Of a stretch of DNA of 64,000 nt, positions 6,044 through 60,957 are shown piece after piece. The first letter of the stretch is position 1. Each line of letters opens with the position of its first letter. The notes under the pieces were generated by a model. The model did not search any database. It was not told the origin of the DNA and saw nothing but the letters and a program-made list of their open reading frames with translations. A program made the position numbers and the translations under genes. The stretch is from Candidatus Peregrinibacteria bacterium CG2_30_44_17 (GTDB lineage: Bacteria; Patescibacteriota; Gracilibacteria; UBA1369; UBA12470), in contig MNZJ01000012.1 in the NCBI GenBank assembly GCA_001873565.1, positions 439-64,438 of the forward strand. Reading direction: 5' to 3'.

Positions 6044-6089
6044 TTGACGGTGAGTAAACCCTCACCTACAATGTGAGCGTATCCTCACC
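6044..6089 (+). promoter_or_regulatory. Near-consensus sigma70 promoter (TTGACG, 17 nt, TACAAT) with two GTGAG-N6-CTCAC inverted-repeat operators
   Basis: ttgacg lies at 6044-6049 and tacaat at 6067-6072. GGTGAGtaaaccCTCACC at 6049-6066 fills the spacer. tGTGAGcgtatcCTCACC at 6072-6089 covers the expected TSS. Confidence 0.55.
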
Positions 6090-6099
6090 ACCCAGTCAA

Positions 6100-6261
6100 A
6101 TGCAAACCTTCATACTTCTGTACATCGCAAAGATCGCCCTCGGCTTAATGCTTATCCCTCTATTTAGAGATTATAGGAGGAGGGAGCTTCGCCATGTGCG
6201 CGTACAAGCATGGCGAGACAGACACGGGAGTAGTAGGAGGTCGCACAGCACTTTATTCTAA
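6100..6261 (+). CDS. Possible small single-TM, Arg-rich protein between the operator-bearing promoter and lexA (the track ORF starts at GTG 6073)
   Basis: MQTFILLYIAKIALGLMLIPLFRDYRRRELRH... has one hydrophobic helix and a basic tail. There is no homology call, so it may be non-coding leader. Confidence 0.3.
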   Translation: MQTFILLYIAKIALGLMLIPLFRDYRRRELRHVRVQAWRDRHGSSRRSHSTLF

Positions 6262-6294
6262 CCCCTACCCACTATCTCGCGCGAAGCGCTCCAT

Positions 6295-6380
6295 CCCTAA
6301 ATCCTAAATCCTAAATCCTGCCATAAATAAACATTCCATTCACTAATCCCTAAATCCTAAGTCCTAAATCCTAAAAAAAC
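6295..6380 (+). repeat. Two blocks of tandem CCTAAAT heptamers (G-poor leader) immediately upstream of the lexA ATG
   Basis: ccctaaatcctaaatcctaaatcct at 6295-6319, and tccctaaatcctaagtcctaaatcctaaaaaaac at 6347-6380. Confidence 0.85.
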
Positions 6381-6995
6381 ATGCTCACCGAAAAACAATC
6401 AGCATTGCTCAAATTCATAGGCCGTTATCAAATGGAAAATGGCGCTTCACCAACTATTAAGGAGATGCGCGAACATTTTGGTGTAAGCTCCGACAATAGT
6501 ATCCTGAAACATCTCAATGCTTTGCAAGAGAAGGGTGAAATCGAGAAAGGAGATACGCCACGCAGCATCAAGATGCTAGGTAGCGTCAGGGAGATTATGG
6601 AGACGGCGAAGAATATAGTCAGCCTGCCTATCTTAAGTACGATTCCGGCAGGAGGAGCGACGATAGGAGAGCAGGAAGAGATAGGTCGAATGGAGCTGGG
6701 CAGTGACATGGTCAAGCGGCCGGATAGCTCGTTCATACTTCGCGTTACAGGGGAGAGTATGGAGGGGGCAGGAATATTTGCAGGCGATCACGTCATTGTA
6801 GGACAAGGAATCGAGCCAAAAGTAGGAGACATTGTAGTGGCTCTTGTTGACGGAGGTAGTACGCTAAAAAGTCTAGTAAAGACAGGAGGGAAATATTATC
6901 TACAGGCAGAAAATCCTGCCTATGAAGACATACATCCGCTCGAATCTCTAGAAGTTCAAGGCGTCGTGACGGGACTGATTAGGAGTTACTTATAA
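6381..6995 (+). CDS. lexA: LexA repressor (S24 autopeptidase)
   Basis: N-terminal winged HTH (SPTIKEMREHFGVSSDNSILKHLNALQEKGEI), then PILSTIPAGG, the Ser in VTGESMEGAGI and the Lys in GGSTLKSL. Confidence 0.9.
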   Translation: MLTEKQSALLKFIGRYQMENGASPTIKEMREHFGVSSDNSILKHLNALQEKGEIEKGDTPRSIKMLGSVREIMETAKNIVSLPILSTIPAGGATIGEQEEIGRMELGSDMVKRPDSSFILRVTGESMEGAGIFAGDHVIVGQGIEPKVGDIVVALVDGGSTLKSLVKTGGKYYLQAENPAYEDIHPLESLEVQGVVTGLIRSYL

Positions 6996-7340: not shown

Positions 7341-7416
7341 TGGAGCCGAGGATGGGACTTGAACCCACGACCTACGCGTTACGAGTGCGTTGCTCTACCA
7401 ACTGAGCTACCTCGGC
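7341..7416 (-). tRNA. tRNA-Thr (anticodon CGU), CCA encoded
   Basis: The reverse complement is GCCGAGGTAGCTCAGTTGGTAGAGCAACGCACTCGTAACGCGTAGGTCGTGGGTTCAAGTCCCATCCTCGGCTCCA. It folds as a cloverleaf with a 7-bp acceptor stem, GTTCAAG T-loop and CTCGTAA anticodon loop. Confidence 0.9.
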
Positions 7417-7551
7417 GAGACATACGTACTTTAAACAGCTTGAAAAAAATTCGCAATAGGGAGGCTTTCTCGCTATAATTCCACCCCTGGAGAAACGGAA
7501 GACAAATTCGCCTACACCCTACACCCTAAGTCCTAAATCCTAACCATATCC

Positions 7552-10173
7552 ATGTCCAAGAAACTGACGCCAATGATGGAGCAATATAATGAGATCAAAG
7601 CATCTCATAATGATGCCATACTGTTTTTTAGACTTGGGGATTTTTATGAAATGTTTGGAGCTGATGCAAAAGAGGCCTCGGTCATTCTTGGCATAACGCT
7701 GACGGCGAGAAACAAAGGCGAGCACAGAACACCAATGTGCGGGATACCTTATCACGCAGCAGAAAACTACGTCGCCAAACTGACAAAAGCCGGCAAAAAA
7801 GTAGCGATATGCGAACAAGTGAGCGATCCGAGTTTGCCTGGAATCGTGAAGAGGGAAGTCATCAAAATAATAACGCCCGGAACGACATTCAATGATAGTA
7901 TCCTTGATAAAAAAACCAACAATTTCGTTGCCAGTATTTTCCCTAAAGAGAACTATTTCGGTCTTGCGCTAGCTGACCTTACAACAGGAGAGTTCAAAGT
8001 AACGGAGATTAGCGGATACGGCGATCTCAAGGCGGAACTCACAAGAGTGCGGCCGTCAGAATGTGTAATCAGGCAGGATCTACTCGAGAGAGTCGACTTC
8101 AAAGAGTTCTTAGACTCCTTTGAAGATATGTATGTATTCAAGTTCGAAGACTGGAACGACCCGTACAAAACCTTGCTCGAGCATTTCAGCGTACGCAGTA
8201 TGGATGGATATGGAGTCGAAAGATGGCCTTTTGGAATGCGTGCGGCGGGGATACTGCTAAGTTATTTGAAATCGACTCAGAAGACAGACCTTAGGCATAT
8301 AACAAAAATTTCATCATACAGTACGGAGGAGACGATGCTGCTTGACGAAGCGACAATACAGAATCTCGAGATCATAGCCACTCTAAGGGAAGGGAAAAAA
8401 GACGGATCACTACTCGGCGTAATAGACGACACAATAACCTCAATGGGAGGAAGATTGCTTAAGAAATGGCTGCTTCGTCCACTGCTCAGCAAAGACGAAA
8501 TACAGAAACGTCTCGACAGCGTGGAAGAACTGGTCAAAAAACAGACAATCAAGCGCTCGCTGGAGGGTAGCCTTAAGCAAATTCTTGATTTGGAGAGATT
8601 AGTCGCCAGACTTAGTTGCGAAAGTGGGAACGCCAGAGATCTGATCGCTATCAAAACTTCACTTCAGGTCATCCCTGAGATCAAAAGGGCTCTCAAAGAC
8701 GCGAACTCAAAACTGCTCGTAAGCGCGAGGCAGAATTTGAAAGAGATAAAAAAACTTGTAGACTTAATAGAAACGGCGATACTCGATGAACCGAAAGTCA
8801 CACTCAAAGACGGAGGACTTATTAAAACAGGATTTTTCCGCGAACTCGATGAGCTCAGAAGCATAAGCAGCGAAGGAAAAAGCTTCATAACGGATTTGCA
8901 AAACAAAGAAATAAAACGAACGGGGATATCATCGCTCAAAGTGAGATACAATAGAGTGTTCGGATATTACATTGAGATCAGTAAGACGAATCTGAGTCTT
9001 GTGCCAAGCGACTACATCCGCAAGCAGACACTTGTTAACGCGGAGAGATTCATCACTCCGGAACTCAAGGAGTACGAAGAGAAAGTCTTAACCGCAGAAG
9101 ATAGAATTGTAGAACTCGAGCATAAGCTTTTTCTTGAGATAAAAAGTCAGGTCTTGGAGCATTTGGAAGGGATACAGAGCAACTCACTCATTATTGCGGA
9201 GCTCGATGTTTTGCACTCATTTGCGCAAACAGCGCTAAAGAATCGCTATACAAAACCTCTCATCAACAATAAGCAAAGGCTGGTAATCAAAAACGGACGA
9301 CATCCGGTTGTCGAACAGATGACATTCGGCAGAACATTCATACCCAACAGCACAGATTTGGATAACGAAACAAATCAATTCGTACTGCTTACAGGTCCGA
9401 ACATGAGCGGAAAATCGACCTACCTAAGACAGGTTGCGCTGATCACGCTGCTGGCACACATCGGTTCATACGTTCCCGCAGGGGAGGCTGATATATGCCT
9501 GACAGATAGGATCTTCACGAGAGTGGGAGCATCGGACAATCTGACAAAAGGGCAAAGCACTTTTATGGTGGAAATGCAGGAGACCGCAAACATAATCAAT
9601 AACGCGACACACAGAAGTCTTATCATCCTTGACGAGATAGGTCGTGGTACAAGCACATACGATGGCATGAGTCTTGCATGGTCCATTTGTGAATATGTCC
9701 ACGACAAAATCAAAGCAAAGACACTGTTCGCGACTCACTATCATGAGCTGATTGCGGTGGTTGATAGGCTGGAAAAAGGATCAAATTTCCACGTCACAGC
9801 GAAAGAAGACGCTCAAAAAGGGATAATTTTTCTCTACAAAGTTCTCGAAGGCGGAATAAGCAAAAGTTATGGGATAGAAGTTGGCAAACTCGCCGGCTTA
9901 CCTGTAGAAATCACAGAAAAAGCGATTCAGATTCTCGAAGAACTGGAAGAAGGAGTGTTGGAAAAGAGCATCAAAGAGAGACTCAAGACAGGCAAAACCC
10001 GCGTACCGGAATCGCAAATGGCCCTATTCGACAAAGCAACAAGCACTTACGCCGCTTCCCGCGAACCGGGCAAGCTAACGCATCCAGCCCTTGAAGCTTT
10101 GAAGAAGCTTGATATAAATACTATGACGCCGCTCGAAGCATTGAAAAAACTAAACGAGCTGAAAGACTTATAG
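7552..10173 (+). CDS. mutS: DNA mismatch repair protein MutS
   Basis: MMEQY...FFRLGDFYEMF N-terminus, Walker A GPNMSGKST, and ILDEIGRGTSTYDG...ATHYHEL. Confidence 0.95.
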   Translation: MSKKLTPMMEQYNEIKASHNDAILFFRLGDFYEMFGADAKEASVILGITLTARNKGEHRTPMCGIPYHAAENYVAKLTKAGKKVAICEQVSDPSLPGIVKREVIKIITPGTTFNDSILDKKTNNFVASIFPKENYFGLALADLTTGEFKVTEISGYGDLKAELTRVRPSECVIRQDLLERVDFKEFLDSFEDMYVFKFEDWNDPYKTLLEHFSVRSMDGYGVERWPFGMRAAGILLSYLKSTQKTDLRHITKISSYSTEETMLLDEATIQNLEIIATLREGKKDGSLLGVIDDTITSMGGRLLKKWLLRPLLSKDEIQKRLDSVEELVKKQTIKRSLEGSLKQILDLERLVARLSCESGNARDLIAIKTSLQVIPEIKRALKDANSKLLVSARQNLKEIKKLVDLIETAILDEPKVTLKDGGLIKTGFFRELDELRSISSEGKSFITDLQNKEIKRTGISSLKVRYNRVFGYYIEISKTNLSLVPSDYIRKQTLVNAERFITPELKEYEEKVLTAEDRIVELEHKLFLEIKSQVLEHLEGIQSNSLIIAELDVLHSFAQTALKNRYTKPLINNKQRLVIKNGRHPVVEQMTFGRTFIPNSTDLDNETNQFVLLTGPNMSGKSTYLRQVALITLLAHIGSYVPAGEADICLTDRIFTRVGASDNLTKGQSTFMVEMQETANIINNATHRSLIILDEIGRGTSTYDGMSLAWSICEYVHDKIKAKTLFATHYHELIAVVDRLEKGSNFHVTAKEDAQKGIIFLYKVLEGGISKSYGIEVGKLAGLPVEITEKAIQILEELEEGVLEKSIKERLKTGKTRVPESQMALFDKATSTYAASREPGKLTHPALEALKKLDINTMTPLEALKKLNELKDL

Positions 10174-10323
10174 AAACAAACGTTTCGCGCAGCGAAACTC
10201 CATCCCTACACCCTACACCCTATCCAAAATCAAAAACAAAAATTCCTGGAAGCACTCAACAGACGATACGTATCGGTTATTTTTGATATAGATGGAACGA
10301 TAACAGAGATTGGTGAGCAGGAC

Positions 10324-23000: not shown

Positions 23001-23277
23001 GGAATTTAGGGTTTAGATTGATGGATAACTACTACTAACTACAAACTACTAACTAACGTAGCGCTAGGGTCCCTAAAAGGGACGGTTCCACCTGGCTTCC
23101 TCCCGGAGGTCTGTTACGGGGAGGCACTTTTGTCTGTAATGATTCTGATTGCGGATGGTACTTACTCAGATTCTTGCTTGGAAGGCTTTCAGCCAAGGCC
23201 TTCTTTCTCTTTTAAGCAGATGTGCAAAGCAGCATGTTCCGCACAAAGATCGTAGTCATAAGGGGAAGCATTGTCAA

Positions 23278-29947: not shown

Positions 29948-30089
29948 TCACAGATGTAGCTGACCCTGTAAACTGTCTTGCGCGAAGCGCTCCATCCATA
30001 CACCCTCATCCCTAAATACTCTGTTCGACACCCATCTCTCAAAAATCATAGTCAGTATTGTACTAGCCGCAGTACCTGCGATAGCATGG

Positions 30090-32047: not shown

Positions 32048-32182
32048 TCCTAAATTGAGATTGCCAAACCAATTTGCCCATGTTAGCATCCATAAGCTAA
32101 CTCCAGATTTTTTGTCGTATACAAAAATCAACTACCAACAACTACTTACTACAAGCTACTGACTACTCACTAATCAATCCCG

Positions 32183-36241: not shown

Positions 36242-36592
36242 TTTGATTTTTATTAAGGCTCAAATTAAATTAAGCAAAAATATTACACCATAGGACTTCC
36301 TGAAATCATTTCTGGCTCTTTAATATCTTTACTCTTTGATTTAATAGAATTTAATAAAGCTTAATAGCATTTAATAGAATCAAACTTCTTCGCCTTAAAT
36401 AAAGCAAACGCAAGAAGAGATACTTAAAACAAAATAAAACAGGCTAAATGCAAGTAAAAATATACAAAAGACTATACACTTCGATAAAACATGATAAAAT
36501 CAAGCATAGAAACAAAAACAAAAACAAAAACTTGTAAAATTAGATAGAACGAGGTAAAATATAACCAAGTATAATAAAACTAAATCAATCAG

Positions 36593-36763
36593 ATGGGGAA
36601 CCGCCTACTGACAGCTGAGCAAGTGGCCAAGGAACTGCAAGTCCACCATCTAACGGTACTAAAGTTTATTAAGCAAAAGAAACTAAAAGCGATCAGGCTT
36701 GGGCGAGTATATCGCATCAGAGAAACGGATTTGGAAAACTTCCTGAATAAGTACTATCTCTAA
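36593..36763 (+). CDS. Excisionase/MerR-type helix-turn-helix DNA-binding protein (56 aa; below the ORF-track cutoff)
   Basis: Translation by eye gives MGNRLLTAEQVAKELQVHHLTVLKFIKQKKLKAIRLGRVYRIRETDLENFLNKYYL, the classic Xis-family pattern (LT..EVA..L.V...T+..+I..G.L.A.++G+.+RI...DL..FL). Confidence 0.6.
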   Translation: MGNRLLTAEQVAKELQVHHLTVLKFIKQKKLKAIRLGRVYRIRETDLENFLNKYYL

Positions 36764-36792
36764 AATAAAAATATAAGCCTCCTCACCTCACC

Positions 36793-36993
36793 ATGCTACT
36801 AAACTGCCTGCACTGCGGAAAATCCATATCGAACAGAAAAGACTTCTGTCCTTACTGCAACTACGAAATTCCTGTCCACTTACAAGAGATGAAACGCCAG
36901 CCTGGCGGCATCAAAAAAGGAGTACTAAAAGATCATTACAAAGGAACGATCTTCTCGTTCGTATATAAGGACTCTCTGAAAAAAGAGCTATAG
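36793..36993 (+). CDS. Small zinc-ribbon protein; the last 9 codons and the stop are supplied by the IS5 left end
   Basis: CLHCGKSISNRKDFCPYCNY carries two CxxC pairs. The ORF runs into the IS terminal inverted repeat at 36966. Confidence 0.5.
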   Translation: MLLNCLHCGKSISNRKDFCPYCNYEIPVHLQEMKRQPGGIKKGVLKDHYKGTIFSFVYKDSLKKEL

Positions 36994-38126
36994 ATTCAAC
37001 CTGTTGGAACCTGTAGAATGGGGTTAGTCATTAACCCCAAAAACTATGTCCACACAAAACAGTTTTCTTGCCATCGCTCACAAGAAGAAGCTTCGATGTG
37101 AGAAATTTCTTGATGATATGAGTAGCGTTATTCCTTGGGATAGTTTTCTAGCTCAGATCGAACCTCATTATGAAGAGAAAGAACGTGGAAGAAGCAAGAT
37201 GGACATGAAGATGATGCTACAAATTTACTTCTTGCAACAATGGTTCAACCTGAGTGATCCTGGGGTGGAAGATATGATTTACGACAGAGCATCATTCCAG
37301 AAATTTCTAGGTATTGATTTGTTAGCAGATAGAGTCCCTGACGAAACCACAATCCTCAATTTTCGACATTTACTTGAAGAACATCAGCTACAAGTTAGAT
37401 TCTTTGATATTGTGAATGAGTTACTTGAAGAAAGAGGTCTTATCAAGAAAGATGGAACCATTGTAGATGCAACTATTATTAATGCCCCTTCAAGTACCAA
37501 GAATCAAAAGAAAGAGCGAGACCCAGAAATGAGCAGTACAAAGAAGGGAGGTAATTATTATTTTGGCATGAAGGGGCATATTGGAGTAGATGCGCAAGGA
37601 GGCCTTGTCCATAGTCTTGAAACAAGTACCGCTTCCGTACATGACAAGGACAAAATGGGAGATTTATTACATGGGGAAGAAAACGCTTTATTTGGAGACA
37701 AAGGCTATATTGGTAGAGAGGAAAAAATAGCGGCAAGAGTAGCAGAAGTTTACTGGGGCGTGCTGGACAAGGCTGCAAGGAATAGACCTCTTTCTTCCAG
37801 CCAGAAGAAACGAAACAACAAGATGTCGAAAATAAGGTCTAAAGTGGAGCATCCATTTCAGGTAATCAAATGCCAGTGGAAATACACAAAGGTTAGATAC
37901 AAAGGATTATTCAAAAACAGCATGCAACTTCACACCTTGTTTGCTTTGTGTAATTTGTTCAAGGCTAGGAAGAAACTCATGGCTCTGTCATAGGGATAAC
38001 TGTACCCAAACGGCAAGAAAACGAAGAAAAAGCACCAAAAAATAGGTGCTTACAACAGAGAAAATTATAAAATTGCCCAAATTTACTTACGCTACCGCAT
38101 GAGGTGCTTTTTTCAGAGAGTCCTTA
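36966..38126 (+). mobile_element. IS5-family insertion sequence (about 1161 bp) with 20-bp perfect terminal inverted repeats
   Basis: IRL is taaggactctctgaaaaaag at 36966-36985. The reverse complement of 38107-38126 is identical. It encloses a single InsH-like transposase gene. Confidence 0.85.
37046..37993 (+). CDS. IS5-family DDE transposase (InsH-like)
   Basis: Collinear with E. coli IS5 InsH: IPWDSFLAQIEPHY..., QQWFNLSDPGVEDMIYD, VPDETTILNFRHLLEEHQL, GTIVDATIINAPSSTKNQKKERDPEM, FGMKGHIGVDA, GDKGY, VEHPFQVIKCQWKYTKVRYKGL. Confidence 0.92.
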   Translation: MSTQNSFLAIAHKKKLRCEKFLDDMSSVIPWDSFLAQIEPHYEEKERGRSKMDMKMMLQIYFLQQWFNLSDPGVEDMIYDRASFQKFLGIDLLADRVPDETTILNFRHLLEEHQLQVRFFDIVNELLEERGLIKKDGTIVDATIINAPSSTKNQKKERDPEMSSTKKGGNYYFGMKGHIGVDAQGGLVHSLETSTASVHDKDKMGDLLHGEENALFGDKGYIGREEKIAARVAEVYWGVLDKAARNRPLSSSQKKRNNKMSKIRSKVEHPFQVIKCQWKYTKVRYKGLFKNSMQLHTLFALCNLFKARKKLMALS

Positions 38127-44836: not shown

Positions 44837-44981
44837 GAATATTTAGTTAGTAGTTAGTGGGTAGTAACTGCATGTGGCTAGTAAAATTTTCGGCCCGACT
44901 TGGTCCGTTTGTTTTGATTTCAGAACAAAACTATTATTGCGGAATTTGTTAGCCGTTGCAAGTGGTGCTTTTTTTTAAAAA

Positions 44982-46025: not shown

Positions 46026-46043
46026 GAGTGTAGGGTGTAGGAT

Positions 46044-46421
46044 TTAGTCGACGGATGCGACTGCGTCTATTTCGACTTTTACATCCAATGGGAGTCTGGC
46101 TACCTGCACTGTAGCACGCGCCGGGTAATCTGCCTCAAAAAACGATGCGTAAACTTCGTTGACCGTTTTGAAATCACCCATGTCCTTAAGAAATATCGTT
46201 GTCTTAACTATCTGCCCAAGCCCTGAGCCTGCTGCTTCCAATACAGCTTTGACGTTGTTCATGCACTGGCGAGCCTGCTCGGAGACGTCTTCGCTAACCA
46301 GTTCGCCTGCCGGTGTGTATGGGATTTGTCCCGAACAAAATACGAATCCATTTGCTTTCACCGCTTGCGAATAAGGTCCCACCGCTTGTGGTGCTGCGTC
46401 AGTTTTGACTATTTCTTTCAT
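46044..46421 (-). CDS. ridA: RidA/YjgF-family reactive enamine/imine deaminase
   Basis: APQAVGPYSQAVKANGFVFCSGQIP...TTIFLKDMGDFKTVNEVYASFF...PARATVQVARLPLDVKVEID. Confidence 0.9.
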   Translation of the reverse strand: MKEIVKTDAAPQAVGPYSQAVKANGFVFCSGQIPYTPAGELVSEDVSEQARQCMNNVKAVLEAAGSGLGQIVKTTIFLKDMGDFKTVNEVYASFFEADYPARATVQVARLPLDVKVEIDAVASVD

Positions 46422-60909: not shown

Positions 60910-60957
60910 CCTTGCATACTCTGTTACCTGCTCTCTGTTATCTGTTAACTACTCATC

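What the first reader, a model, noticed from the sequence alone, without database searches (positions are those of the whole stretch)
6295..6380. G-depleted tandem-heptamer leaders (CCTAAAT / CCTACAC / AACTACT) abutting many start codons
Seen, in the sense orientation of the downstream gene. lexA: (ccctaaat)x3 then tccctaaatcctaagtcctaaatcctaaaaaaacATG. mutS (7511-7543): cctacaccctacaccctaagtcctaaatcctaacc. HAD (10199-10225): tccatccctacaccctacaccctatcc. prsW (29991-30019): tccatccatacaccctcatccctaaatac. ilvC (reverse complement of 46026-46047): ctaaatcctacaccctacactcATG. thrS (reverse complement of 23001-23058): ...gttagttagtagtttgtagttagtagtagttatccatcaatctaaaccctaaattccATG. uvrA (32129-32182): aactaccaacaactacttactacaagctactgactactcactaatc. 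Antiporter (reverse complement of 44841-44870): cagttactacccactaactactaactaaat. These leaders contain no Shine-Dalgarno sequence and almost no G. Inference: they may act as unstructured, S1-type translation-initiation leaders. They may be binding sites for an unknown RNA- or DNA-binding factor. Their G-rich complements (for example tagggtgtagggtgtagggatgg) could also form G-quadruplexes on the template strand. Telomere-like heptamer arrays used as bacterial 5' leaders are not something I know to be described.
Basis: partly seen in the sequence, partly recalled or inferred. Interest (0 to 1): 0.6.

Follow-up and report, generated by a model that had tools for sequence, protein, structure and literature searches.

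The report
Seven-base repeat leaders before genes
In this tiny uncultured Peregrinibacteria (CPR) genome, which does not use Shine-Dalgarno sites, many genes start just behind fast-changing, guanine-poor 7-base tandem repeats that most likely keep the ribosome landing zone unfolded; the feature is real, but the same kind of repeat has been described in other bacteria.

Summary
Period-7 tandem arrays sharing a CTA core are strongly over-represented: (CTA-N4)x3 occurs 138 times against 3.6 expected. 69% lie in the 13% of the genome that is non-coding. The main families have their G-poor strand as the mRNA strand (40:7), and arrays end 3-7 nt before start codons.

They precede 48% of genes in the ribosomal-protein cluster, so they are almost certainly transcribed. 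The whole genome and ten relatives lack SD motifs, are G-depleted at -20..-1, and carry a UAA/A-rich signal at -15..-11, as in Bacteroidetes.

Array leaders are predicted to be almost structure-free (-1.8 kcal/mol, against -6.1 for other genes and -7.7 if flipped). Arrays turn over quickly. The distal lexA array has 3, 8 or 13 copies in natural populations. Relatives carry other units, and even 6- or 8-nt periods, at the same junctions. Arrays also occur in convergent spacers.

Best reading: slippage- and recombination-generated repeats, orientation-filtered, serving as generic unfolded SD-less leaders. They are not sequence-specific signals, and G-quadruplexes are a by-product. About 18 copies begin with a conserved mini-hairpin box (GCGCGAAGCGCTCCAT).

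This scan found the same phenomenon earlier, in this genome and in other CPR genomes. The closest published case is the TAACTGA repeats of Beggiatoaceae.

The parts
6044..6072 (+). Promoter-like site (TTGACG-17-TACAAT) upstream of the small ORF and lexA
   Evidence: also noted earlier by this scan as a candidate LexA-box promoter
6100..6261 (+). Conserved 53-aa small membrane-protein ORF. It makes the lexA 'leader' an intercistronic spacer (6262-6380).
   Evidence: Translation. The motif DY(R/K)RRELR..VQ(A/I)WR is conserved in frame in G003-G005 (DNA).
6279..6294 (+). Hairpin box GCGC-GAA-GCGC plus TCCAT, which opens the repeat leader
   Evidence: 18 sense copies in the genome, each followed by an array and then a start at 29-110 nt. 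Compensatory stem variants; 99.3% of cells paired. Predicted RNA hairpin of -5.2 kcal/mol, the only structure in 6260-6383.
6296..6319 (+). Distal perfect (CCTAAAT)3.4 array of the lexA leader; a copy-number-variable repeat
   Evidence: TRF. 3, 8 or 13 copies in other assemblies, with identical flanks and identical LexA.
6335..6375 (+). Proximal imperfect cassette TCCATTCACTAATCCCTAAATCCTAAGTCCTAAATCCTAA, 5 nt before the lexA ATG (6381)
   Evidence: At least 10 dispersed near-copies upstream of other starts. Invariant among populations.
7450..7479 (+). Promoter-like site TTCGCA-18-TATAAT of mutS, conserved in the same-genus genome G001
7511..7543 (+). mutS leader array CCTACAC x2, CCTAAGT, CCTAAAT, CCTAA; it ends 8 nt before the ATG at 7552 and lies downstream of the predicted -10
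   Evidence: One natural population carries a 43-nt-longer allele with the hairpin box here.
10182..10225 (+). HAD leader: hairpin GTTTCGC-GCA-GCGAAAC, then TCCATCC, then CCCTACA-type array, starting 9 nt after the mutS stop
   Evidence: Relatives show coding sequence upstream of the first ATG.
29980..30019 (+). prsW leader: hairpin box GCGCGAAGCGC + TCCAT + degenerate heptamers, 32 nt after TGGTATAAT
46026..46047 (-). ilvC intercistronic spacer made almost entirely of heptamers (CTAAATCCTACACCCTACACTC-ATG)
23001..23058 (-). thrS leader: proximal G-free CTAAACCCTAAATTCC; distal ACTACTA-type array in the opposite (G-containing) orientation
32129..32182 (+). uvrA leader, ACTACTN-type heptamers
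44841..44870 (-). Antiporter leader, ACTAACT-type heptamers
60920..60947 (+).

Best explanation
The arrays are fast-evolving tandem repeats of 6-8 nt units, mostly 7 nt in this genome, almost all containing CTA.

Shown:
- They arise and change by replication slippage and by recombination between dispersed leader cassettes.
- They sit in the short non-coding spacers of a genome whose ribosomes start without Shine-Dalgarno pairing.

Inferred:
- Upstream of start codons, selection keeps them in the orientation that gives a G-poor mRNA. In that orientation they form a 20-100 nt stretch that cannot fold, contains no AUG/GUG/UUG and no SD-like words, and supplies the U/A-rich -15..-11 context.
- They therefore work as generic unfolded landing or standby sites for S1-assisted, SD-independent initiation. 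This applies especially at internal cistrons of highly expressed operons.
- They are not sequence-specific signals.
- In about 18 leaders a conserved 4-bp GAA-triloop hairpin (GCGCGAAGCGC-UCCAU) marks the 5' edge of the repeat tract. It probably acts as an RNA-level boundary or stabiliser.
For: Enrichment, location and orientation. Arrays are anchored next to starts (last CTA at -10..-6 in 44 of 68; closer to the start than to the upstream stop in 14 of 20 roomy co-directional spacers).

Inside operons: 14 of 29 genes of the r-protein cluster and several V-type ATPase genes carry arrays. Operon-internal genes carry them in 53/524 cases, against 19/387 for first or other genes.

SD-less lineage: G depletion and SD depletion in G000 and in ten relatives. 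Peribacter is listed as SD-scarce in PMC10783764. The UAA/A-rich signal at -15..-11 is found in genes without arrays too (152/923) and in relatives. It matches the A(-14..-11) determinant near S1 in Flavobacterium (PMC6847099).

Structure: MFE over -40..+20 is -1.8 for array leaders, -6.05 for other genes, -9.8 for random windows and -7.7 with the array flipped. The 124-nt lexA spacer folds only into the box hairpin.

S1 with four domains is present; bS21 was not found.

Turnover: 3, 8 or 13 copies at lexA; a cassette replacement at mutS; different units and periods at orthologous junctions.

Hairpin box: conserved in four or more genera, always sense and always followed by a locus-specific array, with compensatory changes.
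Against:
- Arrays occur in convergent spacers, which hold no start codon, at about the same per-spacer frequency (13% against 15%).
- The TCTACAG family prefers the opposite orientation.
- Close relatives have plain short A/T-rich spacers at the same junctions, so arrays are dispensable.
- No preferred register of the repeat relative to the start codon could be shown (chi-square p = 0.26).
- Gene starts come from a crude longest-ORF caller.
- The conserved CTA core is not explained by 'any unfolded sequence will do'.
Confidence: 0.55

Rival explanations
1. The arrays are purely neutral or selfish microsatellites (STRR-like). They expand wherever non-coding DNA exists. Orientation bias and closeness to starts only reflect purifying selection against G, structure or SD-like words in initiation regions, and the shortness of spacers. 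The arrays give no benefit.
For: Similar frequency in convergent, divergent and co-directional spacers. Copy-number polymorphism. Absence at orthologous junctions in several relatives. Arrays break the assembly at contig ends.
Against: Arrays are six-fold enriched in the ribosomal-protein cluster (48% against 7.6%) and two-fold enriched at operon-internal starts. They are anchored at the start-codon side in roomy spacers. They recur at the same junctions in many genera with unrelated units. A conserved hairpin box is always coupled to an array.
Confidence: 0.27
2. The repeats are phased binding sites for a specific RNA- or DNA-binding protein, for example cooperative binding of the single cold-shock-domain protein, S1 domains or an unknown factor recognising CUA every 7 nt, which regulates or recruits ribosomes.
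For: A CTA core is shared by nearly all families and occurs in 45 of 151 genomes of the class, with few hits to the reversed control pattern. One CSD protein and a four-domain S1 protein are encoded. MacGregor proposed the same candidates for TAACTGA repeats.
Against: The four variable positions differ between loci. The period is 8 in the same-genus genome G001 and partly 6 in G004. Copy number of 3 to 13 is tolerated at one gene. There is no register to the start codon.
Confidence: 0.1
3. G-quadruplexes (or i-motifs) formed by the G-rich template strand regulate transcription or replication.
For: 41 canonical G4 motifs against 5.6 in shuffles, nearly all in CCCTAYA arrays with the G-rich strand as template. 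The orientation is the same as for the G4-forming GGGNATC repeats of Xanthomonas and Nostoc.
Against: Most arrays (CCTAAAT, ACTACTN, TCTACAG) have no GGG runs. None of the window examples has four G-tracts. Relatives use G4-incapable units at the same junctions.
Confidence: 0.04
4. The arrays act as all-frame stop blocks or as a non-canonical SD. Either TAA/TAG in three frames insulates cistrons, or CCCUA pairs with an extended 16S tail (…CCUCCUUUCUAGGGAG).
For: CCTAAAT arrays put TAA in all frames. The 16S gene is followed by CUAGGGAG, which is complementary to CCCUAG.
Against: CCCTACA and CCCTATC arrays contain no sense-strand stop. The CUAGGGAG flank is equally present in relatives without CCCTA arrays, and a GGAG after the anti-SD is general in the order, fitting a precursor hairpin with the anti-SD. 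The mature 3' end is unknown.
Confidence: 0.04

Closest known systems
TAACTGA heptamer direct repeats of marine Beggiatoaceae, also found in some Cyanobacteria and Bacteroidetes (MacGregor 2015, PMC4679880)
   Same: Tandem 7-nt direct repeats, mostly in forward orientation within a few nt upstream of start codons. They replace a recognisable SD, are present in ribosomal-protein operons, and have variable copy number. S1, Csp and CsrA were proposed as readers and the function is untested.
   Different: That case has one fixed unit (TAACTGA, which contains G). Here there are many G-poor units with only a CTA core, which differ between loci and genomes. The lineage is different (CPR). Some copies here carry a conserved hairpin box.
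GGGNATC / GGGGA(C/T)T heptameric repeats of Xanthomonas and Nostoc (Rehm et al. 2015, PMC4692102)
   Same: Heptamers over-represented in non-coding DNA between aligned ORFs. The G-rich strand is antisense within 50 bp upstream of ORFs. Copy-number variation is extensive, and most repeats are transcribed in Xanthomonas.
   Different: Those show a preference for four units and G4 formation in vitro. Here most units cannot form G4, and no four-unit preference was seen.
STRR (short tandemly repeated repetitive) heptanucleotides of heterocystous cyanobacteria (Mazel et al. 1990, J Bacteriol; cited from my own knowledge, paper not read here)
   Same: Dispersed intergenic tandem heptamers, several unit families per genome, in a lineage with low SD use.
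   Different: Different units (for example CCCCAAT or CCCCAGT). No documented anchoring at start codons, and no hairpin box.
SD-independent initiation regions of Bacteroidetes (Baez et al. 2019, PMC6847099; Jha et al. 2021, PMC7797042)
   Same: The anti-SD is retained but SD is unused. There is an A-rich determinant at -14..-11 near S1, and initiation is tuned by low mRNA structure and by depletion of stray AUGs. Here: U(-15)A(-14)A(-13), G depletion and low MFE.
   Different: Bacteroidetes hide the anti-SD with bS21/bS18/bS6. No bS21 gene was found here, and Peregrinibacteria commonly lack it (PMC9297842). Repeat-built leaders are not a general Bacteroidetes feature.
d(GCGAAGC)-type GNA-triloop mini-hairpins (Hirao and co-workers; cited from my own knowledge) and 5'-terminal stabiliser hairpins of bacterial mRNAs
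   Same: The box GCGC-GAA-GCGC contains the GCGAAGC motif. It is a short GC stem with a GAA triloop at the 5' edge of an otherwise unfolded leader.
   Different: No evidence here for its form (DNA or RNA) or its role. Membership is a resemblance only.

Membership tests
Heptamer direct repeats upstream of start codons (TAACTGA class, MacGregor 2015) | Tandem direct repeats with a 7-nt unit, two or more copies, many loci per genome | tested here: met
   173 arrays, with period 7 dominant
Heptamer direct repeats upstream of start codons (TAACTGA class, MacGregor 2015) | [quoted passage not shown] | tested here: met
   40:7 sense for the main family; last CTA at -10..-6 in 44 of 68
Heptamer direct repeats upstream of start codons (TAACTGA class, MacGregor 2015) | Canonical SD rare in repeat-containing spacers | tested here: met
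   SD-like words are depleted genome-wide; the arrays are G-poor
Heptamer direct repeats upstream of start codons (TAACTGA class, MacGregor 2015) | Unit sequence TAACTGA, with related heptamers rarely repeated | tested here: not met
   The units are CCCTACA, CCCTATC, CCTAAAT, CCTAAGT, ACTACTG, TCTACAG and others. This is therefore the same kind of feature, not the same family.
G4-forming GGGNATC heptamer repeats (Rehm 2015) | Four or more G3 tracts per array (preference for four units) giving a canonical G4 motif | tested here: not met
   Only the CCCTAYA sub-family qualifies (about 36 of 173 arrays). None of the window examples does.
G4-forming GGGNATC heptamer repeats (Rehm 2015) | G-rich strand antisense within 50 bp upstream of ORFs; copy-number variation | tested here: met
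G4-forming GGGNATC heptamer repeats (Rehm 2015) | Repeats transcribed (RNA-seq) | not testable with these tools
Transcription is inferred from operon-internal position and from predicted promoters upstream.
STRR of cyanobacteria | Dispersed intergenic tandem heptanucleotides in several unit families | tested here: met
STRR of cyanobacteria | STRR1-3 unit sequences; cyanobacterial host | tested here: not met
   Different units. The host is Patescibacteria/Peregrinibacteria by MutS relatives.
Bacteroidetes-type SD-independent initiation | Anti-SD retained in 16S while SD motifs are absent or depleted upstream of genes | tested here: met
   CCTCC is present; SD-like words occur 44 times against 119 in the control
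Bacteroidetes-type SD-independent initiation | A-rich determinant at -14..-11 and low structure around the start | tested here: met
   A is 0.42-0.47 at -14..-11, and TAA sits at -15 in 156/949 genes. Gene starts have MFE -6.05 against -9.8 for random windows.
Bacteroidetes-type SD-independent initiation | Anti-SD sequestered by bS21/bS18/bS6 | tested here: not met
   No PF01165 (bS21) match in a 97%-complete genome. The mechanism of SD blindness here is unknown.

The most novel reading that the evidence does not exclude
The unit 'hairpin box (GCGCGAAGCGC-UCCAU) + G-poor repeat tract + start codon' may be a portable translation-initiation cassette. It would spread between gene starts within and between populations, by gene conversion through the repeats or by an unknown single-strand mobilisation. 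In that reading, leaders of unrelated genes are continually re-equipped, and copy number tunes expression. This would be a repeat-based substitute for the Shine-Dalgarno system in one CPR family.
Probability: 0.2. Interest if true: 0.7.

Novelty: new member of a known kind. Interest (0 to 1): 0.4.

Why it matters
How ribosomes find start codons in the many lineages that ignore Shine-Dalgarno pairing is still open, and CPR bacteria cannot yet be studied at the bench.

This genome offers a natural series of leaders that could be moved directly into reporter assays. The series has the same gene with 3, 8 or 13 repeats, cassette-swapped alleles, and orthologous junctions with or without arrays. 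Such assays could test whether an unfolded, G-free tract is enough for initiation.

There are also practical consequences. The arrays break assemblies. They mark true gene starts, including near-cognate ones, for annotation. They are strain-typing markers for groundwater Peregrinibacteria.

Tried and rejected
- **Extended anti-SD pairing (CCCUA with UAGGG after CCUCCUUUC).** The flank CUAGGGAG is conserved in family members without CCCTA arrays, and a GGAG after the anti-SD is general. It is better explained as a precursor hairpin.
- **Fixed register of the repeat to the start codon, tying arrays to the -15 TAA motif.** CCTA peaks at -17 and -10 looked suggestive, but the phase test on 68 leaders was not significant (p = 0.26).
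- **Telomerase- or retroelement-like synthesis.** No reverse transcriptase domain was found.
- **REP/RAYT-like mobilisation.** A Y1 (IS200-type) transposase exists in two or more copies at contig ends, but its end hairpins differ from the box, and arrays are not tied to it.
- **Known RNA family in the leaders.** Rfam gave only the tRNA at 7344-7416.
- **The -15 TAA as the stop codon of the upstream gene.** Only 10 co-directional pairs have a 12-nt gap.
- **The -15 TAA as a -10 promoter box of leaderless mRNAs.** There is no T at the sixth position.
- **Population variation in the ribosomal-protein operon.** The one place returned was 100% identical.

Full report
**Organism and context.** The window is contig C2 of a 1.17-Mb, 51-contig genome that is 97% complete and 44% G+C. 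The best MutS relatives in named genomes are Patescibacteria/Peregrinibacteria MAGs at 50-56% identity. Unnamed same-genus and same-family genomes reach 72-88%. I built a crude gene set by longest ORF with a codon-usage score: 969 genes covering 87% of the genome. All start-related numbers rest on that set.

**Checking the observation.** All eight quoted leaders are present. Three corrections apply.
- The lexA unit is the heptamer CCTAAAT.
- The distal thrS array is in the opposite, G-containing orientation.
- The HAD and prsW arrays precede regions where earlier notes of this scan propose near-cognate starts. Relatives do show coding sequence (FDIDGT) upstream of the first ATG of the HAD gene.

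Genome-wide figures:
- Exact period-7 arrays number 173, against 54 in a shuffle.
- Period 7 is the commonest TRF period, with 169 rows.
- The unit families (CCCTACA/CCCTATC, CCTAAAT/CCTAAGT, ACTACTG/ACTACTA, TCTACAG/TTTACAG) share a CTA core. (CTA-N4)x3 occurs 138 times against 3.6 expected.
- 119 of 173 merged arrays are intergenic.
- With one gene start facing the array, the G-poor strand is the sense strand 60:23 (p = 6e-5). By family the ratios are 40:7 for CCCTA/CCTAA, 10:3 for ACTAC and 1:6 for TCTACAG.
- 68 genes have three or more phased sense CTA upstream, with the last CTA at -10..-6 in 44 of them.

**The background is an SD-less lineage.**
- Upstream of all 949 scorable starts, G falls to 9-12% at -16..-1.
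- SD-like 4-mers are depleted: 44 against 119 in a control window.
- TAA starts exactly at -15 in 156 genes, with further excess at -14..-12. This holds for genes without arrays (152/923). It is neither the upstream stop codon nor a -10 box.
- Ten relatives show the same G depletion, lack of SD and -15 TAA peak.
- The 16S gene keeps CCTCC. No bS21 gene is found, while a four-domain S1 protein and one cold-shock-domain protein are.
- Published work lists Ca. Peribacter among SD-scarce organisms (PMC10783764) and notes frequent loss of bS21 in Peregrinibacteria (PMC9297842).
- In Flavobacterium, an A-rich -14..-11 motif near S1, low structure and AUG depletion tune SD-independent initiation (PMC6847099).

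The absence of SD and of G in the quoted leaders is therefore a property of every initiation region here, not of the arrays alone.

Indirect evidence is strong.
- Arrays fill intercistronic spacers of the S10-spc-alpha ribosomal-protein cluster (14 of 29 genes) and of the V-type ATPase operon.
- Operon-internal starts carry arrays twice as often as other starts, 53/524 against 19/387.
- Predicted promoters lie upstream of the arrays: mutS TTCGCA-18-TATAAT at 7450-7479 with the array at 7511-7543, and prsW TGGTATAAT.
- The lexA 'leader' is itself an intercistronic spacer. A conserved 53-aa small ORF (6100-6261) lies between the promoter at 6044-6072 and lexA.

**What the arrays do to the RNA.** Predicted MFE over -40..+20:

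| Sequence set | MFE (kcal/mol) |
|---|---|
| Array leaders | -1.8 |
| Other genes | -6.05 |
| Random genomic windows | -9.8 |
| Array leaders with the array reverse-complemented | -7.7 |

The 124-nt lexA spacer folds only into one 4-bp hairpin. Being G-free, the arrays hold no AUG, GUG or UUG. In the flipped orientation they would carry AGGA- or GGUG-type words complementary to the retained anti-SD; that last point is inference.

**Evolution.**
- Contigs from other natural populations that encode the identical LexA protein have (CCTAAAT)n with n = 3, 8 or 13. The flanks are otherwise identical, and the imperfect proximal array is unchanged.
- In one population the mutS leader carries a 43-nt-longer allele. 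Part of the array is replaced by a hairpin-box cassette that belongs to a dispersed family with ten or more near-copies in this genome. The junctions are not a clean insertion, which fits gene conversion through the repeats.
- At orthologous ribosomal-protein junctions each relative has its own repeat 'dialect'. G001 mostly uses 8-mers (YYTACTAA), G002 uses GCCTAAM heptamers, G004 uses GTAGTT hexamers and ACTACTC heptamers, and G005 uses TCTACTA. G006, G007 and G015 often have short A/T-rich spacers with no array. One example is the S5 spacer, which is about 62 nt in this genome and about 25 nt in G006.
- Six-fold phased CTA arrays occur in 45 of 151 sampled genomes of the class, and the reversed control pattern rarely does.
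- Arrays are present in 15% of co-directional, 15% of divergent and 13% of convergent spacers. They are therefore not restricted to leaders.

**The hairpin box.**
- GCGCGAAGCGCTCCAT occurs 15-19 times in this genome. It is always in the sense orientation of the next gene.
- It lies either 4-28 nt after an upstream stop codon or about 30-35 nt after a -10 box.
- It is always followed by a repeat tract and then a start at 29-110 nt.
- The same 16-mer is found in G001 (8 copies), G002 (2), G003 (1) and G004 (5). Each copy is followed by a different locus-specific repeat.
- Stem variants GCGT/ACGC, GCCC/GGGC and GCTC/GAGC are compensatory. 99.3% of cells are paired, and 5 cells have changes on both sides, a count that 0 of 500 shuffles reached.
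- Its role is not established. I infer an RNA-level boundary or stabiliser at the 5' edge of the unfolded tract.

**Interpretation.** The best-supported model (about 0.55) has two layers.
- Slippage and inter-locus recombination keep generating short CTA-containing repeats in spacers.
- Next to start codons, only the G-poor orientation persists. There the repeats serve as generic, unfolded, start-codon-free leaders for S1-assisted, SD-independent initiation.

The main rival (about 0.27) is that they are merely tolerated microsatellites. A sequence-specific reader is unlikely, given variable units and periods. G-quadruplex motifs are confined to one sub-family and to none of the window examples. 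All-frame stops and an extended anti-SD pairing do not generalise. The conserved CTA core remains unexplained.

**Comparison with known systems.** The kind is published:
- TAACTGA heptamers directly upstream of SD-less starts, including ribosomal-protein genes, in Beggiatoaceae (PMC4679880).
- GGGNATC heptamers with the same strand rule and copy-number variation in Xanthomonas and Nostoc (PMC4692102).
- STRR of cyanobacteria (my own knowledge).

My literature searches found no description of this feature for Patescibacteria. Earlier follow-ups of this scan reached similar conclusions, in this genome and in other CPR genomes.

New here, relative to the published cases:
- the lineage;
- the multiplicity of units sharing a CTA core;
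- the box-plus-array cassette conserved across genera;
- direct population evidence for both copy-number change and cassette replacement at the two loci of the finding.

**Verdict.** This is a new member of a known kind, of moderate interest.

Noticed in passing
window 6100-6261 (+): Conserved 53-aa ORF (one TM helix plus a basic tail, RDYRRRELRHVRVQAWR) between the LexA-box-like promoter (6044-6072) and lexA. The motif is conserved in frame in three same-family genomes. It may be an SOS-controlled small membrane protein. My 60-aa ORF cut-off missed it.
   Followed up: partly
genome-wide; all starts, -15..-11: TAA starts exactly at -15 in 156 of 949 genes, with A at 0.42-0.47 at -14..-11. The same peak appears in ten relatives. 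It resembles the A(-14..-11) determinant of Flavobacterium, but with a U at -15. What reads it is unknown.
   Followed up: partly
G000 contig ends C20:9-170, C29:12874-13032, C35:33771-33872, C26:9-95: An IS200/IS605-type Y1 transposase gene in at least two copies breaks the assembly. Its ends have their own hairpins (CCCGTAGC/GCTACGGG and GTTCGC-GTGA-GCGAAC). One copy lies about 25 nt from a heptamer array.
   Followed up: partly
L081 3050-3075 (16S 3' end) and relatives: Directly after CCUCCUUU, the 16S flank carries a conserved (N)GGAG(A) that can pair with the anti-SD (CUCC/GGAG, 6-7 nt loop) across the order. It is probably a precursor hairpin. The mature 3' end is unknown.
   Followed up: partly
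G000 C16:7000-7091, C16:11677-11723, C32:35086-35114, C33:2107-2186, C5:33465-33490: The TCTACAG/TTTACAG family prefers the opposite orientation (mRNA reads CTGTAGA) and begins at or within the stop codon of the upstream gene.
   Followed up: partly
G000 C19:1-83, C25:15342-15416, C43:1-39, C16:95-120: Several contigs end inside long perfect heptamer arrays (for example (AGTCAGT)n of 75 nt or more). True array lengths and counts are therefore underestimated in this assembly.
   Followed up: no
window 7440-7480 and G001 orthologue: The stretch AAAAAAATTCGCAATAG(G/A)GA(G/T)GCTTTCTCGCTATAATTCCA upstream of mutS is nearly identical in the same-genus genome, although the leader behind it has diverged. 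It is likely a promoter plus operator.
   Followed up: no
window 36242-37045: An 800-nt gene-free stretch with ATTTAATAGA x4 (36339-36380) and AAACAA x3.7 (36510-36531). There is no Rfam hit.
   Followed up: no
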